Source of the DNA: an uncultured Candidatus Poseidoniales archaeon
GTDB taxonomy: Archaea > Thermoplasmatota > Poseidoniia > Poseidoniales > Thalassarchaeaceae
Length of the DNA: 22,579 nucleotides
Direction: 5' to 3'
Assembly (NCBI GenBank): GCA_964645485.1
Contig: CAZXZO010000008.1
Span: forward strand, 36,460-59,038
The translations under genes were made by a program, and so were the position numbers. A model generated the notes under the pieces. That model did not search any database, was not told the DNA's origin, and saw nothing but the letters and a program-made list of their open reading frames with translations. This document shows positions 7,369 to 21,110 of this stretch, in pieces. The first letter of the stretch is position 1, and every line of letters begins with the position of its first letter.

Positions 7369-8649
7369 TTATATATCACCAAATTCTACAATTCTAGATT
7401 CTTGCATAGAAATATCAGCAGCAAAAGCAATTTTATGGCTATTCAATGAATCACTCAATGATGTAGTTGCAAGAGATGGTTTCTCACCTCTAACCAGACT
7501 CAGAAAGTCCCTCACTAGGCGTAAATCCCCCCCGCCATGCATGTCATCAATAACCCCGGTATCAACGACCTCTTCTGTGTACTCTTCTCCTTCAATTGCT
7601 GCCGGTCTGTATATTGTGAATTTACCACTAATCATATCACCAAATATCTCACCTTTAGTTCCTACAATCTGAATCCTACGAGTTGCTCTAGAACTGTTAC
7701 TGACTAAGTCATGGGTTGCAAGGCTGCCATTATCAAACTCAATGATGACTGATTGACGGTCTGCAACATCATTTTCACTACGCCAAACACAGCGTCCATA
7801 ATCTGTTGAAGAAATATGTTCTGCTGAAGATATATCATCTACTTTTTCACCTTGCTCATACTTTTTTTCACCTGCTAAGGCGTAAAATGGCCACCAATCA
7901 TTGTCGATATAATGGCGCTTTGCTGAATACTGGCAATCACGTTCAATATCACATTCAAAACAATTCTCACCAGCACCCTCAGGGGCGTTGTTAGAGGTGA
8001 AGAAGTAGCGCCCGCCCATTGATGAAATCTTAGAGGGTTTGATTCCACTATTAAACCAACAAATTAGGTCTAAGTCATGACAGCATTTTGCTAACATAAT
8101 TGGGTTGACTGCACGATTTTTCCATTTACCCCTCACGAATGCTACAACCATATGATGATAAGATACATTTTCTGTTGAATGAATATGAATTATTTCACCT
8201 ATTTCACCTTCAACAATCCTCTTTTGAATCTCATTGTAGAATGGAGCATACCTCAAGACATGACAAATAGCAACTTTCACACCAGCCTTTGAAACAGCAT
8301 CATCAAGCAAATTTAGTTCACTAGAATTTGGTGCAATTGGCTTTTCCAATAACACATGGTACCCTGCTTCTACAAGAGGGATTGTTGTTTCAACATGGAC
8401 TTCATCCATCGTTCCATTGATTGCAATATCTGCAAATCTGGGAATTGCTGCTAATTCTTCGCTTGAAGAGTAACATCTGTCAACCGGGATATTGTATTTT
8501 TCAGCAAAAATTGCCAACCTATCACTGTCGGGGTCGGCTAAGCCAACAACTTCCATTTCTTCTGGGTGCAAAAGAGCATAGGATGCATAGCAAGCAGTTC
8601 TATGGCCCAACCCAACAAGCACGGCTCTTACCCTAGACATACCCCCCAT
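7369..8649 (-). CDS. Gfo/Idh/MocA family NAD(P)-dependent oxidoreductase (likely start 8640)
   Basis: N-terminal Rossmann AVLVGLGHR, GYHVLLEKP, CHVLRYAPFY, LAKCCHDLD, HGGGD. Confidence 0.9.
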   Translation of the reverse strand: MGGMSRVRAVLVGLGHRTACYASYALLHPEEMEVVGLADPDSDRLAIFAEKYNIPVDRCYSSSEELAAIPRFADIAINGTMDEVHVETTIPLVEAGYHVLLEKPIAPNSSELNLLDDAVSKAGVKVAICHVLRYAPFYNEIQKRIVEGEIGEIIHIHSTENVSYHHMVVAFVRGKWKNRAVNPIMLAKCCHDLDLICWFNSGIKPSKISSMGGRYFFTSNNAPEGAGENCFECDIERDCQYSAKRHYIDNDWWPFYALAGEKKYEQGEKVDDISSAEHISSTDYGRCVWRSENDVADRQSVIIEFDNGSLATHDLVSNSSRATRRIQIVGTKGEIFGDMISGKFTIYRPAAIEGEEYTEEVVDTGVIDDMHGGGDLRLVRDFLSLVRGEKPSLATTSLSDSLNSHKIAFAADISMQESRIVEFGDI

Positions 8650-8765
8650 GGTTTTGTGAGGAGAGGTTCACACACTTGAGACTCGCGAGGATTAGATTGT
8701 CAAAAAAACGGGTAGTTGCTTGACTCAAGCACACAAGCATCAAAGGTGATAGGCAGGAGGGGATA

Positions 8766-9320
8766 GTGATGATGAAGAAATGGTTCATGCGCCAGTATTG
8801 GCGGTTGCAACAATCCCAGACTCTCATTTCTATGGTGTTCTGGTGTACCACTCTCACACTCCTTATTTGGCCTTATGTTAGTTGGAGGTTTAATGCAAAT
8901 GAGGAAACTTTGGGCGTAGCGATGACCTATTGGGGTCTTGGCTCAATCGCATTGGGTGTCCTAATTTCGGTGCTATCTATTGGATACATCTATGACCAAT
9001 TCTTGGCTTTGTGGAAAGAGCAGCGAACTGTTGACACCGAGCGCAATCCATTTGGCACGTATGCCCTCATTCCAGCAAATGTTGTAATTATTGGTATGAT
9101 GAACCGTATTCATAGAGACAATGCAAATGGGGATGAAAAAGTCCTTGCTACTTGTGATTGGGTAGATGAATGGCTGAAGTGGTGTAGTTCACAGGAAATT
9201 TGGGCTCGCTCTCAGAAGTTTTGGGATGATACGTTCCCTAACCATGTTCCAGATTTCTTCTTCTTACCAGACGGGGCAGTGGAAGCGGCTAGATCTGTTG
9301 GAAAGAATCTTGATGATTGA
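8766..9320 (+). CDS. Hypothetical membrane protein (2 predicted TM helices)
   Basis: 184-aa ORF filling the intergenic space with SD GGAGGGGA; hydrophobic segments LISMVFWCTTLTLLIWPYV and WGLGSIALGVLISVLSIGYIY. Confidence 0.75.
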   Translation: MMMKKWFMRQYWRLQQSQTLISMVFWCTTLTLLIWPYVSWRFNANEETLGVAMTYWGLGSIALGVLISVLSIGYIYDQFLALWKEQRTVDTERNPFGTYALIPANVVIIGMMNRIHRDNANGDEKVLATCDWVDEWLKWCSSQEIWARSQKFWDDTFPNHVPDFFFLPDGAVEAARSVGKNLDD

Positions 9321-9324
9321 GAAA

Positions 9325-10266
9325 TCAACCCTCGTCCCAATCCTTCCAATTTGGTGATTTCTTTTGGTCATCACCTAATGAGGTGTCTGTAGATTTAGTG
9401 TCTACTTCGCTGATTGGTTGGTTTGATAATTGGGGTTCTTCAACACTTTTCTTGAGAGTCTTTTCCCCATTTGGTGAAGTGGTATCCGGGCGGTCTGAAA
9501 AAGGCGGCGGAACTGATTCAGAAGCCAAGCCGCTCGGCATTTGAATATCTACTGTGATCTTACCATCTGGCCCTGCTTTCTCTTGTAGTCTAGCAAGTGC
9601 GTAAATTTGTTCAGTTGTAAGAACTGCCCCGCTATTGGTAAGTCCCTCCATCTGCAAGTTCAATTTTCTACCATCTGATGTTTGTAGAGTTACATTTGAT
9701 GAGTTGGTTCCATTTTTCTTTCTCATTAAGAATAAGATAAGAGAGAGGGGAAGTAAACAAACTGAAATTACCAATGAAAAACAAGAAAAGAGAATTGTTG
9801 GTTGGGTGAATGCTTCTTCACTTACCTTATTTTGGTCTACCAAATATATTGTTTGATTAGAATGTGAAATAAATTCTAGAGTTGTTGCTTCGGATGGTTG
9901 TACATAACCCATTGGCAAATATATGATTTTACCTTCATCATATTCCATTTCCCCAACACCTGAAAACAAGGATGGTTCTCGAAGTTCGATTTCCTCTCCA
10001 TCTTCAAGAATAGTCACGGAACCATCTATTTTACTAGATTCAGTGGTGTTTTGAAATAATGAGTATACTCGTAACCCTGATAGATTTACCTCTACTGTTT
10101 CTCCAGGTTCAATTACTGCGTCGTTGAACTTATCTGGAACAAGGCCATCGTTAATCGATGGGAATGTGCTCCAAAGACCAGCTGCACCGAGTAATAAAGT
10201 GATGACACCACCAATTAAAAGACGCTTAGGCCAAGGGGAATTCATCTGGCTCATGTCTCCACCCAT
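9325..10266 (-). CDS. Hypothetical membrane protein (N-terminal TM/signal, extracellular beta-rich domain, second TM, acidic tail); likely start 10254
   Basis: 313-aa ORF; hydrophobic LLIGGVITLLLGAAGLW and ILFSCFSLVISVCLLPLSLILFLM followed by RKK. Confidence 0.75.
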   Translation of the reverse strand: MGGDMSQMNSPWPKRLLIGGVITLLLGAAGLWSTFPSINDGLVPDKFNDAVIEPGETVEVNLSGLRVYSLFQNTTESSKIDGSVTILEDGEEIELREPSLFSGVGEMEYDEGKIIYLPMGYVQPSEATTLEFISHSNQTIYLVDQNKVSEEAFTQPTILFSCFSLVISVCLLPLSLILFLMRKKNGTNSSNVTLQTSDGRKLNLQMEGLTNSGAVLTTEQIYALARLQEKAGPDGKITVDIQMPSGLASESVPPPFSDRPDTTSPNGEKTLKKSVEEPQLSNQPISEVDTKSTDTSLGDDQKKSPNWKDWDEG

Positions 10267-10338: not shown

Positions 10339-10369
10339 CTCTTCCCCACCTCATAGAAGTGGGGAAGAG
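10339..10369 (-). terminator. Strong stem-loop 16 nt after the stop of the giant surface-protein gene
   Basis: Perfect 11-bp inverted repeat CTCTTCCCCAC/GTGGGGAAGAG, extendable to about 14 bp with a G-U pair on the minus transcript. No U-tract follows, so terminator function is uncertain. Confidence 0.45.
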
Positions 10370-10385: not shown

Positions 10386-13300
10386 TCAAAACATTTCGTC
10401 TGTAGATAACAGGCTACTCTGCTCTGCAACCTTTGCAAGAGCTTCCTTACGGCGACCATGCATTACTAATCCAGCCACTGCAAGCAATGACAATGTTAGC
10501 AGAATGATAATTCCTGGAACACCCCAAGCACCAAGCGTTTCTGCTGCTTGGTCAATCCAACCATTGCTTGACTTCAATCCATCTTCTATCTCCCAGATAT
10601 TGTCGCGTTCACTTGATTCAACAATCATGTTATCAGGGTCAATCACTAAGACAATATCGTGACTACCAGCCTTTACTGGATAAAGAAGTACAATCTCAGC
10701 AGGGTCTGTACTGTCTGTAGCGTCTGGAGGCATAAGTGCACCAATGACTTGTCTGTAAGCAACATTCTCCTCATCGCAACCGTTTTTGCGAACATCATCC
10801 TTCGATTGGTCTTGACAGACAATTACATGGATATCAGTTGCGTGAACATTTCCATCGTTGATGATTTTAACTCTAATTGGTATCATATCCCCAACGTCGC
10901 CTGAATCCTTTTCCGATGTAACAGAATCAAAGGCTAGATTTGGTGCTCGCAAGCGAATAGTCACAATCAATTCGTTAGTATCCAATAATTCGCCTTCCCA
11001 TGATTCACTGTCATCTGTATCACCATCTTGCATCATGTTTCCAAAGAATGAACGGACCTTCAGTCCAAGTTGTTGATTTCCTAATGCGGCTTCGGTACTA
11101 ATGTTAACAAGAGCAACGATTGGGATTGTGGAATACGATGCCATCTCTGGTAGTATCCAAGTTCCATCTGCATGGCGGACACACTCATTAGCCGGTGCTT
11201 CCTCACCTACACCAAGTTCTCGGCAAGGGATTTCAAACTGACCATCCATTATCGCCCATGAAACTTGCCACTTATCCAAGTGACCCATACCAGGACGTTC
11301 ATCCCAGGTACCTGAAGATAGGTCGATTGTATGGTTGTGTAAAGTTGCTCTATCTGGAACATTTCCGTTGTTAGTAACATTGAGATTGAATCTCACTGTT
11401 CGTCCGGGTGCTGTAGTCTTAACATCTGATTCAACAAATGGATCTAACAATAATTGCATATCATGGAATTCATTAACAGTGATTGCCAATGTTATCGAGT
11501 CTCGTAATCGTGTTGGCCTTCCTGCTGCATCAGGGTATGATTCTTCGCTGAAAACATCTAGAACAATTTCATAATTACCTGCTGTCACCATTAAAGGCAC
11601 ATTTACAGTTACTGTGATATTCTCAGAATCACCACGTTGTAACTCTGAAAGTATACCTCTTGGCACATCGACATCCCACAGAACCTCTACTCCTGCTGTA
11701 AGGTCTGTGACTCGAGCGACACGGATATCATAGCGGTCAGCTCCATTTCCATTGTTTGTGGTAATGATAGGTACCTCAAGTTCATCTGAAGGGTCAACTG
11801 TATACTCGTATGGTGGTGCTAAATCAACGACTGAAGATTCTAAATCATAAACATGAATTACATTCGTTGACAAAATTACCGAGTCAGAAACTCGGCTTGC
11901 ACCTTCCAAGTGCGCCTTGACAGTCAAGGCAGGACCAAGTCCTGCATTTGCGTTATCTGGCGCACATACAACTGCTGTTACAGTGTATGGATAATCAATA
12001 GTCCCCCAGTGTCTTGCTTCATTCAATCCCATTGAATTACCGCCCGGTGCATTCGCGAAGTCTAAGGTAAGTGTCCAGTGGTCTTCTCTCCAAACATGCT
12101 CTGGTATTTCGGATGGTCTTGCAGCCGGTGCACCTGGTGTTGAGAAAATGATGTACCCTGGTTGGAAATGCTTGATGACATCAATGTCATAACTCGCACA
12201 ATCGCCTGGTAGCACATATTCTGTAGTATCATATATTTCAAAGACAATATTACCTGTTGAACGGATACTGACATTGACATACAATTCCAAAACATCCATT
12301 GAACCCGAAGCCACAGACTTACGGGGTTCTCCCATTGACCAACCCTTTAGGAACAGTGCAAAGGTTCCTGGCTCTTGCGTCGTGGGTACGCTAATCTCTA
12401 GATTCTTAGTAACTGACTGGCCTGGGTCAAGTGAGACCTGTAGGGGGAAACGGATTTGCCAACCAAATGGAAGTAACCACTCTTGTTGTCCTTCAATCGT
12501 GTTTGGATCATAGAAGGCAAAACTGTCAAACACATTTCCTGTGTTTGTTATCGTAATTGAGAAAATCGCCGTTTGGCCTTGCTCGACGTCAGACCGTTCG
12601 TGTGAAGTGTCGAGTTGTATTCCGTGAACCACATCCATCATTGTAAGAGTCAATCTATCCGAACGGATTGCCGGGTCTTTGTGCGATACCGCGGATAGGG
12701 TAACATACGAATTTTCGTCATGGTGCGCTTGATACACCGAAGGCGCTCTAACCCGTAGATATATTCTCTCAGATTCCCCTCCTTTCAGATATATTTCTGT
12801 GTCAGGGAATATGGCGGTGTGATTGCTAGCAAAGAACATCGTCATTGTCCAGTTACCTGCGTTACATTGTTGTGAAATTCCATGTGCTTCAGCAATTTCT
12901 TGAGGAACAATACACATCATGCTGAGATTCAATGAATATGTGTCAGCGACCAAATCGATAGGTCCAGGTGTTGTATTATTGATTGTCATATTGAAGATTG
13001 TCTCCTCACCTGGCTCAATAATGTGCAACCAATCTGCTTCTCCATCTTCTAGGAAGACATCGACTTGACCAGTCAATATATGTGTGTAACAAATTGTGTA
13101 CATATTGTTGTTTGATGTGCCGTCACACTTTGTAGTGTCAGACCACGCCATGTGAGCTCCGCTACCAAGGTCATTTGCAAACGCTGGTGGCTGCCCAAGT
13201 TCAGGTGCACGACCGGTGTTTGGGCCTAACTTATCGGAGGCCCACTTTGTTACTGGAGTTGGTTCCCATTCATCAAGAACGAATGTTGCGAGAGAATTTA

Positions 13301-15482
13301 GAGGAATTCCATCTGGGTATGCATCGTTGGTGTGATTCAAACGCGTGTACATTATCTCTTCGCCAGCAGTAACATTGGAATTCTCTAGCCATGCGATGTG
13401 AATGTTATCTTGTGCATCAGCAAGAATTGCGGGCATGTAAGATGATGGGCCCCAAGGTCGTGCCGGTGGGATGTTGTTCTTTCCTTCAAATTCAGAGATT
13501 GGATAATCGTAAATTTGTTTAATACCATACGATGGTAGTCCACCTGGAACACCGTTCCAATCACTTGAACCACGTAGCCTTAGACGTGTGTACCAAACTT
13601 CGTAATTGTCATCCTTGTCAAACCCATAACCACGAGCATCCATCCAAGCGATGTGAGTGTTTCCACTTGAATCAATAGCAATTGATGGATGTAGACTGAA
13701 TGCGTCATCGATTGTGATTCTTGTATCATTTACTACTACAAGGCTACCCACCCCATTGGAATCAACTGAAGGACCGATTCTCTCAAAGTAGGAGTTACCC
13801 GAAACCGAGTGACCAGCGTCACCATACCCCCATGAGTTAGGTGGGTTATTGATGAGTGAATGAGGGTCGAGTACAGTTAGGTAGATTTCACGAGAATTGT
13901 TTGTTGCAAGATAAATCATTGCCTCTACTAGAAGACTCATTGAATTTTGACCACCAGATGGGAACGCATGTGCTTGACCACCTGCATTGGTATTTCGAAT
14001 GGTTGAACCTGGGCAAATTCTTGGCCCGGTTGATGTTTGACCATTCGGACATTTTGCCATATCAATACTCGCTGAAGCAACCCCTTGGTTGTTCCCTGAA
14101 TACATAGGTACAGGAGTTACACCTGCAAGCACACAAGCATCGTGTGCTTCGTTAATACTCTGTGAATCTTGTTGATCAATTGGGTGGCCTCCATATGGCC
14201 CCTCATCTGAAATCGGCATTACAATCTTAGTTGCATTTGGATTCCACTTGTGGTCACGCTGAGTTGGTGGATTGCCTGGAACATTTCCAGCAGCATCCTT
14301 CCATGACAAACATGCCCATGTTGAACCTGGACCCCAAAATTCAGAGTAATATCCACCGTCAGAAGGAAGGTTAGTTGCTGCGCCACCATAAACAACTTCT
14401 GTTAATTTTCTAATCCCACCTGAATGGTCAGATGGATTCAGACCTAGTGCAGTTGGGCGGACATTACCACCTGAACCACCAGTTGCGTAAGCGGTTGAAC
14501 AAGCGCCAGAACTAGCTGCACTCGGGGTGTTACCACTTAGAAGATACAATGTTTCGTAAACAGATATGTTCGCATCCATCAACATTGGTTTGATGCCTTG
14601 GAAGTAACCACCACTTGACCATTGACCACCATAAAACACAGTACACATGTCTCCCCATTCTTGGTACATTGAACCTGAAGTGTCAATTGGTGCTGCGAAT
14701 TCCACCTTTCCACCACGTGTATCATCCCATACAATCTGTACGAAGTCGTTGGCGTCAACTGCTATGTCAGGGTGTCCCTTGTGGCCGATAATAGGTGTAA
14801 GTAGAGTATCATCAATTGCTGTTATTGCTTCTCTTGTGGAGAGGTCAATATCCAACATTGTGTAATATATCTGTGGTTGTTGGTAAAATTTGTCAAGTTG
14901 TTCGTATGAATCTTGCCAAACGATGTGGACTGAGCCAAGCGAGTCGAGTGCTATGGCTGGCCATCCTCTGTCTTGATTCCTTTGACTGACTATGAAATCG
15001 TCAACCATTGCTAGTGTTGCATCATCACCAGGTGAACCATCTTGTGGATGGAAAGACGGGTCTAGTAGAGTGTACATGATTGAATGTTGACCAGCAGTAT
15101 TGGCCCAAGTAACGTGTACCATCCCAACATCATCTACAGCAATATCTGGGTTCCATGCACGGTGAGCACCGGTGTTGGAAATCTGAGTCGCAGAAATCAC
15201 AGTTTGTGCTCTCGCATCCAACATTGTGTAATACAGATGTTGTGTGTTCCTACTCCATACAATGTGGATATTTCCATCCCCGTCTGAATCAACAGCCGCC
15301 ATTCTATCATTCACTTGGCCACCATCAACCACTTGCACTGCATCTGTGATGACGACTTGGGCTGCTTCTGCATCTCCTATTGTTGGAGAATAGCCTGCCA
15401 AAAGACTGCTAATTACCATCAGCAAAACCATCATCATACTTTTATTTGTGTCATTCATTTTAATCGACTCCTTCAGTATCAC
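10386..15482 (-). CDS. Giant membrane-anchored surface protein: signal peptide, 7-repeat beta-propeller with inserted vWA domain, several Ig-like (NEW3/CARDB-like) domains, C-terminal TM; likely start 15458
   Basis: Signal MNDTNKSMMMVLLMVISSLLAG..AEA. Seven P-x-I-A-x-D-x-x-G-x-x-H-I-x-W-like repeats. vWA DTSGS and ISDE. Repeated (I/V)T(N/I)xGNxxD strands. CARDB-like PNLAFDSV...VIDPDNMIVESSERDN. TM WGVPGIIILLTLSLLAVAGLVM. Confidence 0.85.
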   Translation of the reverse strand: MILKESIKMNDTNKSMMMVLLMVISSLLAGYSPTIGDAEAAQVVITDAVQVVDGGQVNDRMAAVDSDGDGNIHIVWSRNTQHLYYTMLDARAQTVISATQISNTGAHRAWNPDIAVDDVGMVHVTWANTAGQHSIMYTLLDPSFHPQDGSPGDDATLAMVDDFIVSQRNQDRGWPAIALDSLGSVHIVWQDSYEQLDKFYQQPQIYYTMLDIDLSTREAITAIDDTLLTPIIGHKGHPDIAVDANDFVQIVWDDTRGGKVEFAAPIDTSGSMYQEWGDMCTVFYGGQWSSGGYFQGIKPMLMDANISVYETLYLLSGNTPSAASSGACSTAYATGGSGGNVRPTALGLNPSDHSGGIRKLTEVVYGGAATNLPSDGGYYSEFWGPGSTWACLSWKDAAGNVPGNPPTQRDHKWNPNATKIVMPISDEGPYGGHPIDQQDSQSINEAHDACVLAGVTPVPMYSGNNQGVASASIDMAKCPNGQTSTGPRICPGSTIRNTNAGGQAHAFPSGGQNSMSLLVEAMIYLATNNSREIYLTVLDPHSLINNPPNSWGYGDAGHSVSGNSYFERIGPSVDSNGVGSLVVVNDTRITIDDAFSLHPSIAIDSSGNTHIAWMDARGYGFDKDDNYEVWYTRLRLRGSSDWNGVPGGLPSYGIKQIYDYPISEFEGKNNIPPARPWGPSSYMPAILADAQDNIHIAWLENSNVTAGEEIMYTRLNHTNDAYPDGIPLNSLATFVLDEWEPTPVTKWASDKLGPNTGRAPELGQPPAFANDLGSGAHMAWSDTTKCDGTSNNNMYTICYTHILTGQVDVFLEDGEADWLHIIEPGEETIFNMTINNTTPGPIDLVADTYSLNLSMMCIVPQEIAEAHGISQQCNAGNWTMTMFFASNHTAIFPDTEIYLKGGESERIYLRVRAPSVYQAHHDENSYVTLSAVSHKDPAIRSDRLTLTMMDVVHGIQLDTSHERSDVEQGQTAIFSITITNTGNVFDSFAFYDPNTIEGQQEWLLPFGWQIRFPLQVSLDPGQSVTKNLEISVPTTQEPGTFALFLKGWSMGEPRKSVASGSMDVLELYVNVSIRSTGNIVFEIYDTTEYVLPGDCASYDIDVIKHFQPGYIIFSTPGAPAARPSEIPEHVWREDHWTLTLDFANAPGGNSMGLNEARHWGTIDYPYTVTAVVCAPDNANAGLGPALTVKAHLEGASRVSDSVILSTNVIHVYDLESSVVDLAPPYEYTVDPSDELEVPIITTNNGNGADRYDIRVARVTDLTAGVEVLWDVDVPRGILSELQRGDSENITVTVNVPLMVTAGNYEIVLDVFSEESYPDAAGRPTRLRDSITLAITVNEFHDMQLLLDPFVESDVKTTAPGRTVRFNLNVTNNGNVPDRATLHNHTIDLSSGTWDERPGMGHLDKWQVSWAIMDGQFEIPCRELGVGEEAPANECVRHADGTWILPEMASYSTIPIVALVNISTEAALGNQQLGLKVRSFFGNMMQDGDTDDSESWEGELLDTNELIVTIRLRAPNLAFDSVTSEKDSGDVGDMIPIRVKIINDGNVHATDIHVIVCQDQSKDDVRKNGCDEENVAYRQVIGALMPPDATDSTDPAEIVLLYPVKAGSHDIVLVIDPDNMIVESSERDNIWEIEDGLKSSNGWIDQAAETLGAWGVPGIIILLTLSLLAVAGLVMHGRRKEALAKVAEQSSLLSTDEMF

Positions 15483-17861: not shown

Positions 17862-18296
17862 CTAATTTGACGATATTGCATCTGCAAGTTTTGCCAAAGC
17901 AGAATAATCTGGCTCGACTGAACCAATTGCAGGAGCGTTTGGAAACATGGCTAATACACTTCTTCCACCATCCCCATGTGTTCTAGGAATTACATGAATG
18001 TGAACATGGGGAATTTCCTGTCCGGCTTCTGGCCCATCGTGAACAACAATTGTGCAATCAGTGGTGCCAAAGTGATTACCCAACAATTCTGATACTGTTG
18101 CTACACCCTCCATCAAAGAATTTTGGCTCTCCCTACTCAAATCTCTAATCCTTTGTTTTTGCTCAACAGGTACTACAAGAGTGTGACCTTCTGCTCGTGG
18201 ATTAATGTCAAGGAATGCAACCCAGGATTCGTGTTTAGCAATAAATGAGGCGGGAATTTCTCCGTCAATTATCTTTGAAAAAAGGCTGGGCTCCAC
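17862..18296 (-). CDS. HIT family (HINT-like) nucleotide hydrolase
   Basis: SLFSKIIDGEIPA, AFLDINPRAEGHTLVVP, histidine triad HVHIHVIPR. GTG start overlaps the upstream TAG. Confidence 0.95.
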   Translation of the reverse strand: MEPSLFSKIIDGEIPASFIAKHESWVAFLDINPRAEGHTLVVPVEQKQRIRDLSRESQNSLMEGVATVSELLGNHFGTTDCTIVVHDGPEAGQEIPHVHIHVIPRTHGDGGRSVLAMFPNAPAIGSVEPDYSALAKLADAISSN

Positions 18297-19555
18297 TATT
18301 CACAACTCCCTGGTGGTGTCCACACGAATTCGATACCTTTGTGACTCGGCCCTTCCCAAGTGATACGATGACTCCCCCCTATCAATTCAATTGTACCATC
18401 TCCATCAATATCACCTGAATCAAAAGTCATAATATATCTCAAAATTTGGGTGGCTTCATGTCGAGTGAATTGTTCATTTCCATCGTTCTCTAGAATCACG
18501 ATATCAACTCGATGCCAATCAGGGAAGAAGTCTGGAATCTGTAATGTTCCAACAACTATGTCAAGATCACCATCATAATCTATGTCAACCGCATGGCCGG
18601 TAAAAGCCCCCCACACATTGGTTAATTGATGGCGAGTGAATTGCCCTGAACCATCATTCTCAAGCCAATTTACTCCATGATATGTATGTGGATCTATCTC
18701 ACCTGGTAAATCCATATCTAGAGTGTCTCCATTAGAATAAATGATGTCTGAATCTCCATCTTGGTCGAGGTCAACTACCTCTAAACCAGACATGCCGTAG
18801 AACGTTTCGTCTTCGTTAACTAGCGAATGTTTAGTGAAGTTTCCTGCCCCATTATTTCGGTAAATATTGATTTCTTCTGATACTTGGGAAAGAGAGACTG
18901 CGATATCTAAATCCCCATCCCCTTCAAGGTCAAATGGAAAGGCATGAATTACACCTGAACGCAAATCAATATTATGTCTAATCCAAGTATTGTTTTCACT
19001 TTGCTCTAACCAAAATAAACTACCCTCAAAATTTCCGAATTCACAAACTATCAAATCTAAATCACCGTCTTGGTCAAAATCACCAGATTCAGCACAGACT
19101 GTGCGGCCAATTTCTTCTATCAATATAATTGGTTCAAACTCTCCATCTGCAAGCCCTTTCAGCATCACAACTTTGCCAACTAATTCATCTGCAGGTGGGA
19201 GGATTCCTATGTCTGCAACAATAATATCCTTTAATCCATCATCATCTAAGTCAACAACGTGAGTCCTTACTGGAGCAATGAATCCTTGGTCAAACAATTG
19301 TTCAATACAACCATTTTCATCACAGATTGTTCTAGTGAATGTACCATCTAAGGGGTGGGTTGCAAAAATTTCATCCACCCCGTTACCATCTAAATCTGCT
19401 AATCTAATGTTTGCTGTTGTAACTCCCTCTGGGTCAGGCAGGTACTCAACCGTAGAAAGCCCCTCTTCGCATGGTTCTTCTGTTGGAGGTGAAACACAAC
19501 CCGAAAAACAAACACTGAAAATTATCAGTGCGATAAGAATTGGATAGAGTCGCAT
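18296..19555 (-). CDS. FG-GAP/VCBS-repeat beta-propeller lipoprotein (start reassigned from 19621 to 19555)
   Basis: Seven DxDxDG-like motifs (DLDGNG, DLDDDG, DFDQDG, DLEGDG, DLDQDG, DIDYDG, DIDGDG). The ATG at 19555 gives the signal peptide MRLYPILIALIIFSVCFSG-C with a lipobox. Confidence 0.85.
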   Translation of the reverse strand: MRLYPILIALIIFSVCFSGCVSPPTEEPCEEGLSTVEYLPDPEGVTTANIRLADLDGNGVDEIFATHPLDGTFTRTICDENGCIEQLFDQGFIAPVRTHVVDLDDDGLKDIIVADIGILPPADELVGKVVMLKGLADGEFEPIILIEEIGRTVCAESGDFDQDGDLDLIVCEFGNFEGSLFWLEQSENNTWIRHNIDLRSGVIHAFPFDLEGDGDLDIAVSLSQVSEEINIYRNNGAGNFTKHSLVNEDETFYGMSGLEVVDLDQDGDSDIIYSNGDTLDMDLPGEIDPHTYHGVNWLENDGSGQFTRHQLTNVWGAFTGHAVDIDYDGDLDIVVGTLQIPDFFPDWHRVDIVILENDGNEQFTRHEATQILRYIMTFDSGDIDGDGTIELIGGSHRITWEGPSHKGIEFVWTPPGSCE

Positions 19556-19610
19556 AGTTGTGCCAAGTTGGCAGAGATGGTCAACGTTCCGGCCTATTTG
19601 AGGAGAGAAA

Positions 19611-21110
19611 TTACTCATCACTACGCTGATGACTACCGCAAGATTCTGTTCGTGCGGTTGCTGACTCTACAGCATTTAGGGCGACTTTAACCATACCTTG
19701 GAGACGGAATACTTCAACTAATTCGGTGTTCATTACTGGGCTTTCGTCCGACAATGTGATTTGAGTTTCTACAAGTTCAGAAAGCCGTTGTGCTGCACTG
19801 CTCAATGAGGCGCCATCCCGACTAACTCCCATTGAATCTGACATGATTGAATTCAATTGGTTTGCAACTTGGCCTCTTGTCATTCCGCTCTCTGTTGTGG
19901 CTAATAATTTACCAAAGCGGGATGCTGCCGCTGACAAAGCGGAATCAATTGCATCAGAATCGGAAAATTGTGATTCGGCAGCATGGTCTGCCGCTGAAGC
20001 GCCTGCGTTGCATCCACCATCAAGGGAATCCAACAACCTGTTACCAACAGCCATATCAGCACCATGTAATCCACTGCAAGAACAATCTCCTGCAGCAAAT
20101 AATCCAGTGTGAGAAGATACTGTTCCAGAATTTTCACAAGGCACACCGCCAATAGTGGTTGAAACCTGAGGTGAAATTGGAATCACTGTCTCGCTCATTT
20201 GACCACCTAGACGAGAAGATACTCTTTCAGATGTGTCTCCATACCAAACCGGGGTACCCCGAGTTAATACACGGGCGTCCAACACACACTGTTCTCCTGA
20301 ATTTATCAGGGATTGTGAGGCTTCGGAAATACCTCCTTCGGATGAGAATTCAATATCGCTACCTGACGCAGAACGAACTGCTGCTCCATCATCAAGGATT
20401 GCAAATGGGAGTTGTAGACCATGCATTTCCATGCTAAGAGGATTCCATCCTACAAACTCAAGATTACTTAGAGAAACCCCTGCATCAGAGGCTAACCAAA
20501 GACCAGTTCCACCGCTACCTCCATTCCATGCTGATTCAAAACCGTCGGTTGCGAGGATTACTGATTTTGCCTTTAGTGCTACCATTTCACCCCGCTGCAC
20601 ATCCAAACTGATTAATCCGGTAACTGCATTTGATTCAGTTACTAGGGACAGAGATTGCATATCTCCTCTTCTAGAAATCCCTCGCTTCATGCACTGCTCT
20701 TCGAGAAGTAAGTACAATTCTCGCCCTGTGGTATCACCAGTTGTGGCAACTCTTGGTTGGCTGTGGCCTGGCCCTGAACTTAGTAGCGGTAATCCATTTT
20801 TCCCGCGGCGAAGAGTTAGCCCCCAACGCTCTAATTGGGCTAGATGGTCAAAGGCAGATGCTGTCCTGTGGCGGACTGTTGATTCATCACACTGACCTAA
20901 TCCGACAGCAATTGTATCTTTTGCGTGCCCGTCAAAATTAGTTTCATCAAGTGATACTGCGAAGCCTTCAACAGATGTTGTTGCACCGCCTGAACCTATT
21001 GCACCTTCTTCTAAAATTGTGACTGATGCTCCCGCATCATTGGCCGCAATCGCGGCCCGTAATCCGGCTACCGTGCCGCCTACAACGACTACATCCCAGG
21101 CTTCCATCAA
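19611..21110 (-). CDS. SdhA/FrdA/NadB-fold FAD-binding protein, catalytically divergent (likely start 21107)
   Basis: DVVVVGGTVAGLRAAIAA, AKSVILATDG, GLFAAGDCSCSGLHGA..GNRLLD, MGVSRDG..L, ARTESCGSHQR. Canonical active-site His/Arg residues not found (see findings). Confidence 0.85.
   Translation of the reverse strand: MMEAWDVVVVGGTVAGLRAAIAANDAGASVTILEEGAIGSGGATTSVEGFAVSLDETNFDGHAKDTIAVGLGQCDESTVRHRTASAFDHLAQLERWGLTLRRGKNGLPLLSSGPGHSQPRVATTGDTTGRELYLLLEEQCMKRGISRRGDMQSLSLVTESNAVTGLISLDVQRGEMVALKAKSVILATDGFESAWNGGSGGTGLWLASDAGVSLSNLEFVGWNPLSMEMHGLQLPFAILDDGAAVRSASGSDIEFSSEGGISEASQSLINSGEQCVLDARVLTRGTPVWYGDTSERVSSRLGGQMSETVIPISPQVSTTIGGVPCENSGTVSSHTGLFAAGDCSCSGLHGADMAVGNRLLDSLDGGCNAGASAADHAAESQFSDSDAIDSALSAAASRFGKLLATTESGMTRGQVANQLNSIMSDSMGVSRDGASLSSAAQRLSELVETQITLSDESPVMNTELVEVFRLQGMVKVALNAVESATARTESCGSHQRSDE

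What the first reader, a model, noticed from the sequence alone, without database searches (positions are those of the whole stretch)
10386..15482. Integrin-like architecture in one archaeal surface protein: propeller with inserted vWA, Ig stalk, TM, short tail
Seen: seven repeats with cores DGNIHIVW, VGMVHVTW, LGSVHIVW, NDFVQIVW, SGNTHIAW, QDNIHIAW and GSGAHMAW over about 13070-15380. Repeats 1-3 and 5-7 continue to a (I/L/V)xYT strand within about 20 residues, but repeat 4 breaks after VWDDTRGG and resumes only at REIYLT about 270 aa later. The insert (about 13893-14708) starts with VEFAAPIDTSGSM (MIDAS DxSxS, 14667-14684) and contains IVMPISDE. About 850 aa of Ig-like/CARDB domains, one TM and a ~24-aa cytoplasmic tail follow. 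Established: I-domain integrin alpha chains have a vWA domain inserted in a 7-bladed propeller on an Ig-like stalk with one TM and a short tail. Inference: a convergent, metal-dependent adhesin or particle/polymer receptor, fitting particle-attached marine archaea. The repeats are not FG-GAP type, so this is analogy rather than demonstrated homology.
Basis: partly seen in the sequence, partly recalled or inferred. Interest (0 to 1): 0.72.

Follow-up and report, generated by a model that had tools for sequence, protein, structure and literature searches.

The report
Archaeal surface propeller with nested vWA
Nearly every Marine Group II (Poseidoniales) archaeon sampled encodes this ~1,690-residue membrane-anchored surface protein, whose predicted head is a closed seven-bladed propeller with a metal-site (vWA) domain looped out of blade 4; this copies the layout of animal I-domain integrin heads by an independent insertion, and its ligand is still unknown.

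Summary
ORF 10386-15482 (-) has seven PDIAV/HxxW repeats. Repeat 4 is split by about 276 residues that begin with DTSGS.

AlphaFold (pLDDT 86, pTM 0.87) gives one closed seven-bladed propeller, with VIA Z 33 to the CylK propeller and Z 27 to PLL lectins. The insert sits between strands 2 and 3 of blade 4. Folded alone, the insert matches only vWA domains: all of the top 50 VIA hits (Z 9-11), and integrin beta-I and vWF-A by Foldseek. No Pfam VWA model hits it directly. Compact relatives in other Thermoplasmatota do hit VWA (E 2e-6), and aligned to them the insert shows four lineage-specific expansions.

The insert was found in 149 of 151 Poseidoniales genomes, and the gene sits in conserved housekeeping synteny. 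DTSGS is kept in 122 of 122 orthologues and the beta4 SDE in 119 of 122. Paralogues, including one in this genome, have a decayed site. The short cytoplasmic tail is conserved.

This is not an integrin. It has no FG-GAP repeats, no Ca loops and no GFFKR, and the insertion point differs.

The most likely function is a stalked, cation-dependent adhesin or receptor. An envelope (S-layer-like) role is the main rival. Ligand and expression are untested.

The scan found orthologues of this protein before on other genomes, with the same reading. New here are the compact-vWA link, a nested compact form outside the order, the MIDAS decay in paralogues and the tail motif.

The parts
10386..15482 (-). 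Whole ORF (1698 aa from GTG 15482; probable true start ATG 15458, giving 1690 aa)
   Evidence: the 94%-identical orthologue P0002 is 1690 aa
15468..15471 (-). GGAG Shine-Dalgarno-like motif 9 nt upstream of ATG 15458
   Evidence: read directly from the sequence
15360..15458 (-). Signal peptide region (MNDTNKSMMMVLLMVISSLLAG...AEAAQ)
   Evidence: hydrophobic segment at residues 15-36; the cleavage site was not predicted
14721..15356 (-). Propeller, N-terminal part: closing strand, blades 1-3, and strands A and B of blade 4 (residues ~43-254)
   Evidence: DSSP of the model; repeat cores; VIA alignment to seven-bladed propellers
13893..14720 (-). Inserted vWA domain (residues ~255-530), six conserved Cys. 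It has four expansions (about 285-295, 334-365, 395-411 and 478-500) relative to compact archaeal vWA relatives
   Evidence: models; fold searches; alignment A3; Pfam VWA hits in compact relatives
14670..14684 (-). MIDAS DxSxS (D267-T-S269-G-S271) at the end of vWA strand beta1
   Evidence: DTSGS in 122 of 122 orthologues; degenerate in paralogues
14202..14210 (-). S425-D426-E427 at the end of vWA strand beta4 (candidate fifth MIDAS ligand, D426)
   Evidence: SDE in 119 of 122 orthologues; D and E invariant in A3; replaced in paralogues
13068..13892 (-). Propeller, C-terminal part: strands C and D of blade 4, and blades 5-7 (residues 531-805)
10539..13067 (-). Stalk of about 840 residues made of beta-sandwich (Ig-like/CARDB-type) domains
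   Evidence: DUF7507 at 962-1025, NPCBM_assoc, CARDB at 1514-1629; choice-of-anchor T at 1167-1315; weak AbpX-like match for the first stalk domain. The number of domains was not modelled
10455..10529 (-). Single C-terminal transmembrane helix (residues 1652-1676)
   Evidence: hydropathy scan; no PGF-CTERM model hit
10389..10454 (-). Conserved 22-aa cytoplasmic tail (GRRKE-ALAKVAEQSSLLS-TDEMF)
   Evidence: tail alignment across both families
10339..10369 (-). 11-bp-stem hairpin (CTCTTCCCCAC/GTGGGGAAGAG) 17 nt after the stop codon; terminator-like
   Evidence: read directly from the sequence

Best explanation

Its head is a closed seven-bladed beta-propeller of the PDIAV/BNR_4-like repeat class. 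A divergent, enlarged, disulfide-rich vWA domain is nested in the loop between strands 2 and 3 of blade 4. About 840 residues of beta-sandwich domains follow, then one transmembrane helix and a conserved 22-residue cytoplasmic tail.

The most likely mode of action is a stalked, divalent-cation-dependent binding head. The vWA MIDAS (D267, S269, S271, D426) would hold Mg2+ or a similar ion, and an acidic group of a ligand would complete the coordination, as in other MIDAS-bearing vWA adhesins. The ligand could be a protein or an anionic polymer on a particle, on another cell, or on the cell's own envelope. The propeller would be the rigid platform and the stalk would lift the head off the membrane.

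Shown here: the gene, the repeats, the predicted folds, the nesting point, the distribution, and the selective conservation of the MIDAS residues.

Inferred: metal binding, the head facing away from the membrane, the nature of the ligand, and any role for the tail.

The likeness to I-domain integrin alpha chains is convergent in architecture. Only the vWA domain belongs to the same superfamily.
For: Repeats and the split of repeat 4.

Head model: pLDDT 86.1, pTM 0.87, with 7 x 4 strands plus an N-terminal closing strand.

One closed seven-bladed propeller spanning the insert: CylK Z 33.3 (352 aligned, rmsd 2.5, model 7-767); PLL lectins Z 26-28 (317 of 336 target residues aligned).

Insert modelled alone: pLDDT 83.9.
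- Every Foldseek hit is a vWA. The best are integrin beta-I domains at E 4.7e-4 with probability 1.0; vWF A3 and BatB also appear.
- All 50 top VIA hits among 48,161 chains are vWA domains, Z 8.8-11.1, with 155-199 residues aligned.

Sequence bridge to the vWA superfamily: compact relatives in other Thermoplasmatota align to the insert (tblastn E 1e-10 to 3e-6) and themselves hit Pfam VWA (E 2.2e-6).

MIDAS under selection:
- DTSGS in 122 of 122 and SDE in 119 of 122 orthologues.
- Seven paralogue lineages have lost these residues but keep the structural WGPG and T311.

Core gene: the insert was found in 149 of 151 Poseidoniales genomes and in 22 of 22 genera. The synteny is conserved.

Anchor and tail. 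The ectodomain is acidic (pI 4.4) and the protein has 19 N-x-S/T sequons.
Against: - No experiment, and no RNA or protein data. No RNA run was available.
- Pfam VWA does not hit this protein or any of the 35 family members tested. Family profiles find no vWA chain in the PDB by sequence. The vWA call therefore rests on predicted structure, the motif and a transitive link.
- VIA Z of 9-11 is only moderately above background.
- The fourth MIDAS ligand (Thr or Glu) could not be assigned. T311 lies in mid-strand and is kept even in MIDAS-less paralogues.
- About 55% identity between families over the whole length, stalk included, is unusual for an exposed adhesin. It would also fit a structural envelope protein.
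Confidence: 0.6

Rival explanations
1. It is the main cell-envelope (S-layer-type or canopy) protein of Poseidoniales. The stalk and head would form the wall, and the vWA/MIDAS would make metal-bridged contacts between subunits rather than bind outside ligands.
For: - Near-universal in the order, and single-copy in one family.
- Conserved housekeeping synteny, its own SD-like motif and a terminator hairpin.
- Even conservation along the whole length, including the stalk (0.58-0.69).
- Length of about 1700 aa, acidic ectodomain, 19 sequons and a C-terminal membrane anchor. From my own knowledge, several archaeal S-layer glycoproteins share these features.
- Weak NCBIfam hit to a 'putative S-layer protein' model (E 0.003, far below cut-off).
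Against: - There are no abundance data.
- No known S-layer family is matched above threshold.
- Exposed lattice proteins usually diverge much faster than the ~55% identity seen between families here (own knowledge).
- The paralogues lost the MIDAS but kept the fold. This looks more like ligand-site divergence than lattice contacts.
- The two roles do not exclude each other.
Confidence: 0.22
2. The propeller is a catalytic domain, a glycosidase, lyase or alkylating enzyme like the seven-bladed GH145, PL42, PL25 or CylK propellers. The vWA would be an accessory substrate-binding module.
For: - The closest structural neighbours of the propeller include CylK (Z 33), GH145 BT3686 (Z 25) and PL42 and PL25 lyases (Z 23 and Foldseek E ~5e-6).
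- Pfam BNR_4 hits the repeats in 6 of 35 family members and in propeller-only relatives.
Against: - Lectins and WD40 propellers score just as high (Z 25-28), so the match is to the fold and not to an active site.
- Across the wider family, 27 of the 34 columns that are at least 90% conserved lie in the insert. Most of the propeller columns are the repeat motif itself.
- Sequence identity to the enzymes is 7-13%.
- No catalytic residues could be mapped.
Confidence: 0.07
3. It is a true homologue or ancestor-like relative of integrin alpha chains: common descent of the whole propeller-plus-I-domain head.
For: The best Foldseek hit of the whole head is the integrin alpha-L headpiece (E 3.4e-8). 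Both domains superpose individually on alpha-M: propeller Z 24.5 and I domain Z 9.8.
Against: - No FG-GAP hit, although a neighbouring gene hits FG-GAP_3 at E 4e-32 with the same tool.
- No DxDxDG Ca loops of the integrin type and no GFFKR.
- The insertion is inside blade 4, whereas in integrins it lies between blades 2 and 3 (own knowledge).
- Whole-head TM-score is only 0.20-0.26.
- By its abstract, PMC4237329 reports that alpha-I domains have not been observed in species that diverged before the urochordates.
- The compact nested form in another archaeon and the stand-alone compact vWA relatives point to an archaeal origin for the insert.
Confidence: 0.02

Closest known systems
Integrin alpha subunits with an inserted alpha-I domain (alpha-L, alpha-M, alpha-X, alpha-E; PDB 5e6u, 5e6s, 7p2d, 5es4)
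   Same: - Seven-bladed propeller head with a MIDAS-type vWA domain nested in a propeller loop.
- Stalk of beta-sandwich domains, one transmembrane helix and a short conserved tail.
- These chains are the best Foldseek hit of the whole head. The propeller and the insert each superpose on alpha-M.
   Different: - The blades are PDIAV/BNR_4-like, not FG-GAP, and there are no Ca2+ hairpins.
- The insert is inside blade 4 (between strands 2 and 3), not between blades 2 and 3.
- The vWA is about 276 aa with four extra loops and three likely disulfides.
- The linkers are very short (about 4 residues each side).
- No beta subunit is known and there is no GFFKR.
- The organism is an archaeon, so this is an independent origin.
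Integrin beta I-like domains and classic vWA domains (vWF A1/A3, collagen VI, BatB, TRAP, ANTXR)
   Same: Same alpha/beta fold, with DxSxS at the beta1-alpha1 loop and an Asp after beta4. Like beta-I domains, it is an enlarged vWA with inserted loops, and beta chains head the Foldseek list.
   Different: - Beta-I and plain vWA domains tie by VIA (Z 10-11).
- The Pfam Integrin_beta hit in one relative is not significant (E 0.094).
- No ADMIDAS or SyMBS residues could be assigned.
- The extra loops are at other positions, judged by alignment to the compact relatives.
PilY1/PilC-type pilus tip adhesins (own knowledge; PMC11525922 appeared in search)
   Same: A prokaryotic surface protein that combines a vWA domain with a seven-bladed-type propeller for adhesion.
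   Different: In PilY1 the vWA and the propeller are in tandem, not nested. PilY1 is carried on a type IV pilus, not on an Ig-like stalk with a membrane anchor, and it is bacterial.
Sialidase-superfamily / BNR_4 (GH145-like) and 'PDIAV motif-containing lipoprotein' (NF053835) propellers; CylK C-terminal propeller
   Same: Same repeat class by weak sequence hits: NF053835 at 64.5 bits (cut-off 90), and BNR_4 in 6 of 35 relatives. These are also the best structural matches of the propeller.
   Different: The hits are below the curated cut-offs for this protein. Those proteins have no nested vWA. The enzymes among them have active sites that could not be traced here.
Bacterial sialidases with a domain inserted in the propeller (NanB/NanC, leech sialidase L)
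   Same: A propeller with a foreign domain looped out of a blade. They rank high in Foldseek.
   Different: They are six-bladed catalytic propellers with Asp-boxes. Their inserted domain is not a vWA, and whole-head TM-score is about 0.2.

Membership tests
Integrin alpha subunit (I-domain type) | Seven FG-GAP repeats forming the propeller | tested here: not met
   No FG-GAP or FG-GAP_3 hit at E<=1 and no FG...GAP pattern. The same scan gives FG-GAP_3 at E 4e-32 for the neighbouring gene 18296-19621.
Integrin alpha subunit (I-domain type) | Ca2+-binding DxDxDGxxD hairpins in the later blades | tested here: not met
   The regex found no D-x-[DN]-x-[DN]-G-x-x-[DE]. The only DxDxDG (DSDGDG, residue 65) is part of blade 1's repeat motif.
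Integrin alpha subunit (I-domain type) | I domain inserted between blades 2 and 3 | tested here: not met
   The insert lies between strand B (model 209-215) and strand C (model 492-499) of blade 4.
Integrin alpha subunit (I-domain type) | Membrane-proximal GFFKR in a short tail; obligate beta-subunit partner | tested here: not met
   No GFFKR. The tail motif is GRRxE..AEQSSL..acidic-F. No conserved partner gene was found in synteny. Heterodimerisation itself cannot be tested with these tools.
vWA superfamily (Pfam clan vWA-like; PF00092) | Rossmann-like alpha/beta fold with a central sheet flanked by helices | tested here: met
   Insert model at pLDDT 84 with alternating beta/alpha elements. 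All 50 top VIA hits and all Foldseek hits are vWA domains.
vWA superfamily (Pfam clan vWA-like; PF00092) | MIDAS: DxSxS after beta1, Thr (or Glu) in a later loop, Asp after beta4 | tested here: inconclusive
   DxSxS (D267/S269/S271) and D426 are present and conserved. The Thr/Glu ligand could not be assigned without coordinates. Metal binding was not tested.
vWA superfamily (Pfam clan vWA-like; PF00092) | Significant match to a curated vWA sequence model | tested here: inconclusive
   No hit for this protein or for 35 relatives. Compact relatives that align to it do hit PF00092 at E 2.2e-6 and VWA_2 at 0.029.
PDIAV-motif / BNR_4 (sialidase-clan) propellers | Score above the curated cut-off of NF053835 or PF15892 | tested here: not met
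   NF053835 scores 64.5 bits against a cut-off of 90. PF15892 does not hit this protein, but hits 6 of 35 relatives (best E 7.8e-6) and the propeller-only relatives. The repeat class is related; membership is not shown.
Archaeal S-layer glycoproteins / PGF-CTERM archaeosortase substrates | PGF-CTERM sorting signal, or a match to a known S-layer family | tested here: not met
   No NCBIfam hit in the last 70 residues at E<=10, although ArtA homologues exist in 18 of 21 relatives. The PACE-CTERM S-layer model scores 16 bits against a cut-off of 110.
Archaeal S-layer glycoproteins / PGF-CTERM archaeosortase substrates | Very high abundance and lattice formation | not testable with these tools
   No RNA run holds the gene. 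No proteomic data were found.

The most novel reading that the evidence does not exclude
The protein is a working single-chain analogue of an integrin, evolved independently in archaea. Ligand binding at the MIDAS would be mechanically coupled to the conserved cytoplasmic tail (GRRxE..AEQSSL..acidic-F) and to an intracellular partner. The coupling path would run through the last vWA helix, which is tied to blade 4 by only about four residues, and then down the rigid stalk. This would give Poseidoniales outside-in or inside-out control of attachment to particles.
Probability: 0.1. Interest if true: 0.85.

Novelty: new variant of a known kind. Interest (0 to 1): 0.6.

Why it matters
Poseidoniales are among the most abundant archaea of the surface ocean. 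They are uncultured, and nothing is known about their envelope or how they attach to particles.

This protein is in almost every genome sampled, it is large, and the databases call it only 'hypothetical' or 'CARDB domain-containing'. It is therefore a prime candidate for the main surface receptor or wall component of the group.

It is also a clean case of convergent protein architecture. The nesting of a MIDAS vWA domain in a seven-bladed propeller on an Ig-like stalk was otherwise known from chordate integrins. Here it arose separately from different blades and at a different loop.

The contrast between MIDAS-keeping orthologues and MIDAS-less paralogues gives a ready-made natural experiment for function.

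Tried and rejected
- **Sequence searches for vWA.** Pfam on the protein and on 35 relatives found no VWA. PDB sequence searches with the protein, with the whole-family profile and with the insert-only profile found no vWA chain. The vWA call rests on fold, motif and the compact relatives.
- **Expression.** No RNA holder was listed for the gene. The MGII metatranscriptome paper PMC9723583 does not mention such a protein.
- **Literature.** No paper found with Poseidoniales/MGII plus integrin, von Willebrand, S-layer or metaproteome describes it.
- **Partner gene.** The 313-aa downstream ORF (9325-10266) and the 307-aa ORF downstream of the paralogue are unrelated. The synteny consists of housekeeping genes.
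- **PGF-CTERM signal.** No hit.
Foldseek favours beta chains slightly, but VIA ties them with plain vWA domains, so this stays undecided.
- **ESM Atlas.** It returned only unnamed Thermoplasmatota clusters.
- **Genome-contig scan.** The 80 best loci are all Poseidoniales.
- **Complex prediction.** Not used. Two heads exceed its size limit and no specific partner is claimed.
- **Model coordinates.** They are not exposed to scripts, so the MIDAS geometry, the propeller face and the disulfide pairs were not measured.
Full report
**What is in the sequence**

The window's longest ORF, 10386-15482 on the minus strand, encodes 1698 residues from a GTG. The true start is probably the ATG at 15458. GGAG lies 9 nt upstream of it, and the 94%-identical orthologue is 1690 aa.

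Six of them share the longer pattern P-x-I-A-x-D-x-x-G-x-x-H-[IVM]-x-W. Six of the seven, repeats 1-3 and 5-7, then reach an (I/L/V)xYT strand 6-16 residues further on. Repeat 4 stops at VWDDTRGG (W252) and resumes at REIYLT (531-536).

The intervening ~276 residues begin KVEFAAPIDTSGSM and contain KIVMPISDEGP.

There is an N-terminal signal-like hydrophobic segment. The single C-terminal transmembrane helix is 1652-1676, and a 22-residue tail follows. An 11-bp-stem hairpin follows the stop codon.

**Sequence-family searches**

- Pfam finds only beta-sandwich families in the C-terminal half (DUF7507, CARDB, NPCBM_assoc) and nothing in the head.
- NCBIfam gives a sub-threshold match of residues 17-134 to 'PDIAV motif-containing lipoprotein', and a match to choice-of-anchor T in the stalk.
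- Propeller-only relatives and 6 of 35 family members hit Pfam BNR_4, so the blades belong to the sialidase-clan repeat class, not FG-GAP.
- No vWA model hits this protein or any of the 35 relatives.
- PDB sequence searches with the protein or with family profiles find no vWA chain.

**Structure prediction of the head**

I built a 35-sequence alignment from relatives found by the two large protein searches. AlphaFold2 modelled residues 40-830 with mean pLDDT 86.1 and pTM 0.87.

The strand pattern is seven four-stranded blades. An N-terminal strand (model 4-6) is in the position to close blade 7. An alpha/beta domain (model ~220-488) lies between the second strand (209-215) and the third strand (492-499) of blade 4.

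VIA-align superposes the model, across residues 7-767, on complete seven-bladed propellers:

| Target | Z | Aligned residues | rmsd |
|---|---|---|---|
| CylK | 33.3 | 352 | 2.5 |
| PLL lectins | 26-28 | 317 of 336 target residues | ~3.0 |
| WD40 proteins | ~25 | | |
| GH145 | 25 | | |
| Integrin alpha-M / alpha-L | 24 | | |

Covering about 94% of a closed seven-bladed target in one rigid superposition excludes two separate half-propellers.

Foldseek's best hit for the whole head is the integrin alpha-L headpiece, which carries its alpha-I domain (E 3.4e-8). The TM-score is only 0.20-0.26. The parts are alike, but the placement of the inserted domain is not.

**The insert is a vWA domain**

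Modelled alone (residues 250-540, 38-sequence alignment), the insert has pLDDT 83.9 and pTM 0.86.

- Foldseek's list is entirely vWA domains. Integrin beta I-like domains lead (E 4.7e-4, probability 1.0), followed by vWF A3, BatB and collagen VI.
- An independent all-against-48,161-chain VIA search gives vWA domains in all 50 top rows (Z 8.8-11.1, 155-199 residues aligned). These include vWF A1, BatB, collagen VI, Pactolus, TRAP, ANTXR, Rpn10 and the alpha-M I domain.

The Z values are moderate, but the list is uniform. The DxSxS sits exactly at the end of the first strand.

**A sequence bridge to the vWA superfamily**

Genome searches across Thermoplasmatota turned up compact (~190-aa) relatives in other families (L011, L013, L014). 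They share DTSGSMYxxW, WGPG/WGV, KIxIPISDE and the conserved Cys. These relatives hit Pfam VWA at E 2.2e-6.

Aligned to them (A3), the Poseidoniales insert is the same core plus four lineage-specific expansions, at about residues 285-295, 334-365, 395-411 and 478-500. The last is a Cys-bracketed loop.

One contig-end fragment from a non-Poseidoniales Thermoplasmatota genome (G285, L012) has PDIAV-type blades with a compact vWA starting at the same point of its fourth blade...THIGWHDAK-RIDIVFLVDTSGSM (25% identity over 409 residues). The nested architecture is therefore older than, or has moved beyond, the order. The enlarged vWA is the derived state.

**Distribution and conservation**

- The insert query finds the gene in 149 of 151 sampled Poseidoniales genomes: 22 of 22 genera, all three families, and 57 of 58 high-quality genomes.
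- It finds nothing in 10 genomes of the sister family in the same class. Elsewhere in the phylum there are only weak vWA-only hits.
- Gene order is conserved between families: TopoVI B/A, an HTH regulator, this gene, DUF2299, an acyltransferase, HIT, a flavoprotein, RFC. None of these suggests a functional partner.
- Identity to the query, averaged over a panel of 13 full-length relatives (58-94% identical), is 0.66-0.69 in the head, 0.58 in the stalk and 0.57 in the tail.
- The tail has a recognisable motif in both families: GRRxE-A-x-x-[RK]-x-AE-[QK]-SS-[LM]-[LV], then an acidic cluster and a terminal F.

**The MIDAS contrast**

DTSGS is present in 122 of 122 orthologues, and the beta4 SDE in 119 of 122.

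Seven paralogue lineages keep the structural hallmarks (T311, WGPG) but have replaced the metal ligands. Examples are SAGGT/SDA, PSTGS/GYE, PVAIS/GEA, PTDGS/GRY and PTNGY/GVE. The second copy in this very genome (contig 22, 1726 aa, 35% identical) has DSSSG/GDE.

The paralogues also have long (100-150 aa) cytoplasmic tails that end in a shared ...IGD[LI]ID[DG]L[LW] motif. Residue-specific conservation in one lineage and decay in its duplicates is the pattern expected if the metal site is functional in the main copy.

**How it most likely works**

*Shown:* a secreted, membrane-anchored, acidic (pI 4.4) protein with 19 N-x-S/T sequons. Its head is a seven-bladed propeller carrying a nested vWA with conserved MIDAS residues.

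*Inferred from general propeller topology:* the strand 2-3 loops lie on the same face as the inter-blade loops. The chain leaves blade 7 from the opposite face into the stalk. The vWA should therefore sit on the membrane-distal face. I could not measure this, because model coordinates are not exposed.

*Inferred from the vWA superfamily:* a divalent cation at the MIDAS is completed by an acidic group of the ligand.

I therefore read the protein as a stalked, cation-dependent adhesin or receptor (confidence about 0.6 for this function, and about 0.9 for the architecture).

The main rival is a structural envelope (S-layer-like) role (0.22). It fits the universality, the size, the anchor and the even conservation. 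It has no support from known S-layer families, and the abundance data it needs could not be obtained.

A catalytic propeller is less likely (0.07). Lectin and WD40 propellers match as well as the enzymes do. Nearly all columns that are at least 90% conserved across the wider family lie in the insert.

**Comparison with what is known**

The protein works like, and looks like, an I-domain integrin alpha chain, but it is not one.

- No FG-GAP repeats, although the same tool finds them at E 4e-32 in the gene at 18296-19621.
- No integrin Ca2+ loops and no GFFKR.
- The insertion is inside blade 4, not between blades 2 and 3.
- The propeller matches integrin alpha no better than it matches unrelated propellers.

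By its abstract, PMC4237329 states that alpha-I domains have not been observed in species that diverged before the urochordates. By its abstract, PMC3192720 reports integrin-type propellers in bacteria. Neither describes a nested vWA in prokaryotes. No searchable paper describes this Poseidoniales protein. The databases name it only 'hypothetical', 'uncharacterized membrane protein' or 'CARDB domain-containing'.

Whether the vWA is specifically of the integrin beta-I-like subtype remains undecided.

**Earlier notes of this scan**

Earlier notes show that orthologues on other genomes were already flagged and followed up with the same conclusion. I re-derived the architecture independently here.

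- the compact-vWA bridge to Pfam VWA;
- the four expansions of the insert;
- the nested compact form outside the order;
- the contrast between MIDAS-keeping orthologues and MIDAS-less paralogues;
- the tail motifs;
- the transcription-unit details.

**Verdict**

This is a new variant of a known kind. Interest is 0.6.

Noticed in passing
window 18296-19621 (-): A 441-aa protein with genuine FG-GAP_3/FG-GAP repeats (E 4e-32), the integrin/VCBS-type propeller class, lies three genes upstream of the finding. It has no counterpart in the syntenic regions of three other Poseidoniales genomes (L007, L009, L010), so it looks like a lineage-specific insertion.
   Followed up: partly
G000 contig 22, 3299-8479 (-) (L025): This is a second copy of the family in the same genome: 1726 aa, 35% identical in the head, with the vWA nested at the same place. 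Its MIDAS is degenerate (DSSSG, GDE). Its cytoplasmic tail is ~130 aa and ends DEFTIGDLIDGLL. The same C-terminal IGD[LI]ID[DG]L[LW] motif ends the tails of other paralogue clusters (P0130, P0136, P0141), which suggests a conserved cytoplasmic docking peptide.
   Followed up: partly
L012 (G285 contig 454, 3-1340, -): A contig-end fragment from a 5.5-Mb Thermoplasmatota MAG outside Poseidoniales has PDIAV-type blades with a compact vWA starting at the same point of the fourth blade. The rest of the gene is missing, and the MAG is fragmented (980 contigs, 3% contamination).
   Followed up: partly
window 7369-10266: Three ORFs sit between the HTH regulator and the big gene here: a GFO/IDH/MocA oxidoreductase (7369-8649), a 184-aa ORF, and a 313-aa membrane protein with no family. 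In other families the regulator directly abuts the big gene. A weak homologue of the 313-aa protein lies elsewhere in the neighbourhood in two of the three syntenic regions (L007, L009).
   Followed up: partly
window 19611-21110 (-): An SdhA/NadB-like flavoprotein (FAD_binding_2 plus Succ_DH_flav_C) is conserved in the synteny but has no sdhB/C/D next to it. I did not check this.
   Followed up: no
G000 contig 7, 31080-31880 (-) and relatives: Archaeosortase A (TIGR04125) homologues score above cut-off in 18 of 21 Poseidoniales genomes, so PGF-CTERM-type processing probably exists in the order. This protein's C-terminus nonetheless gives no PGF-CTERM hit. Its segment before the transmembrane helix reads VPG-I rather than PGF.
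   Followed up: partly
window 10339-10369: A perfect 11-bp-stem hairpin (CTCTTCCCCAC ... GTGGGGAAGAG) starts 17 nt after the stop codon. It is a likely transcript end or stabiliser, and it was not compared across genomes.
   Followed up: no
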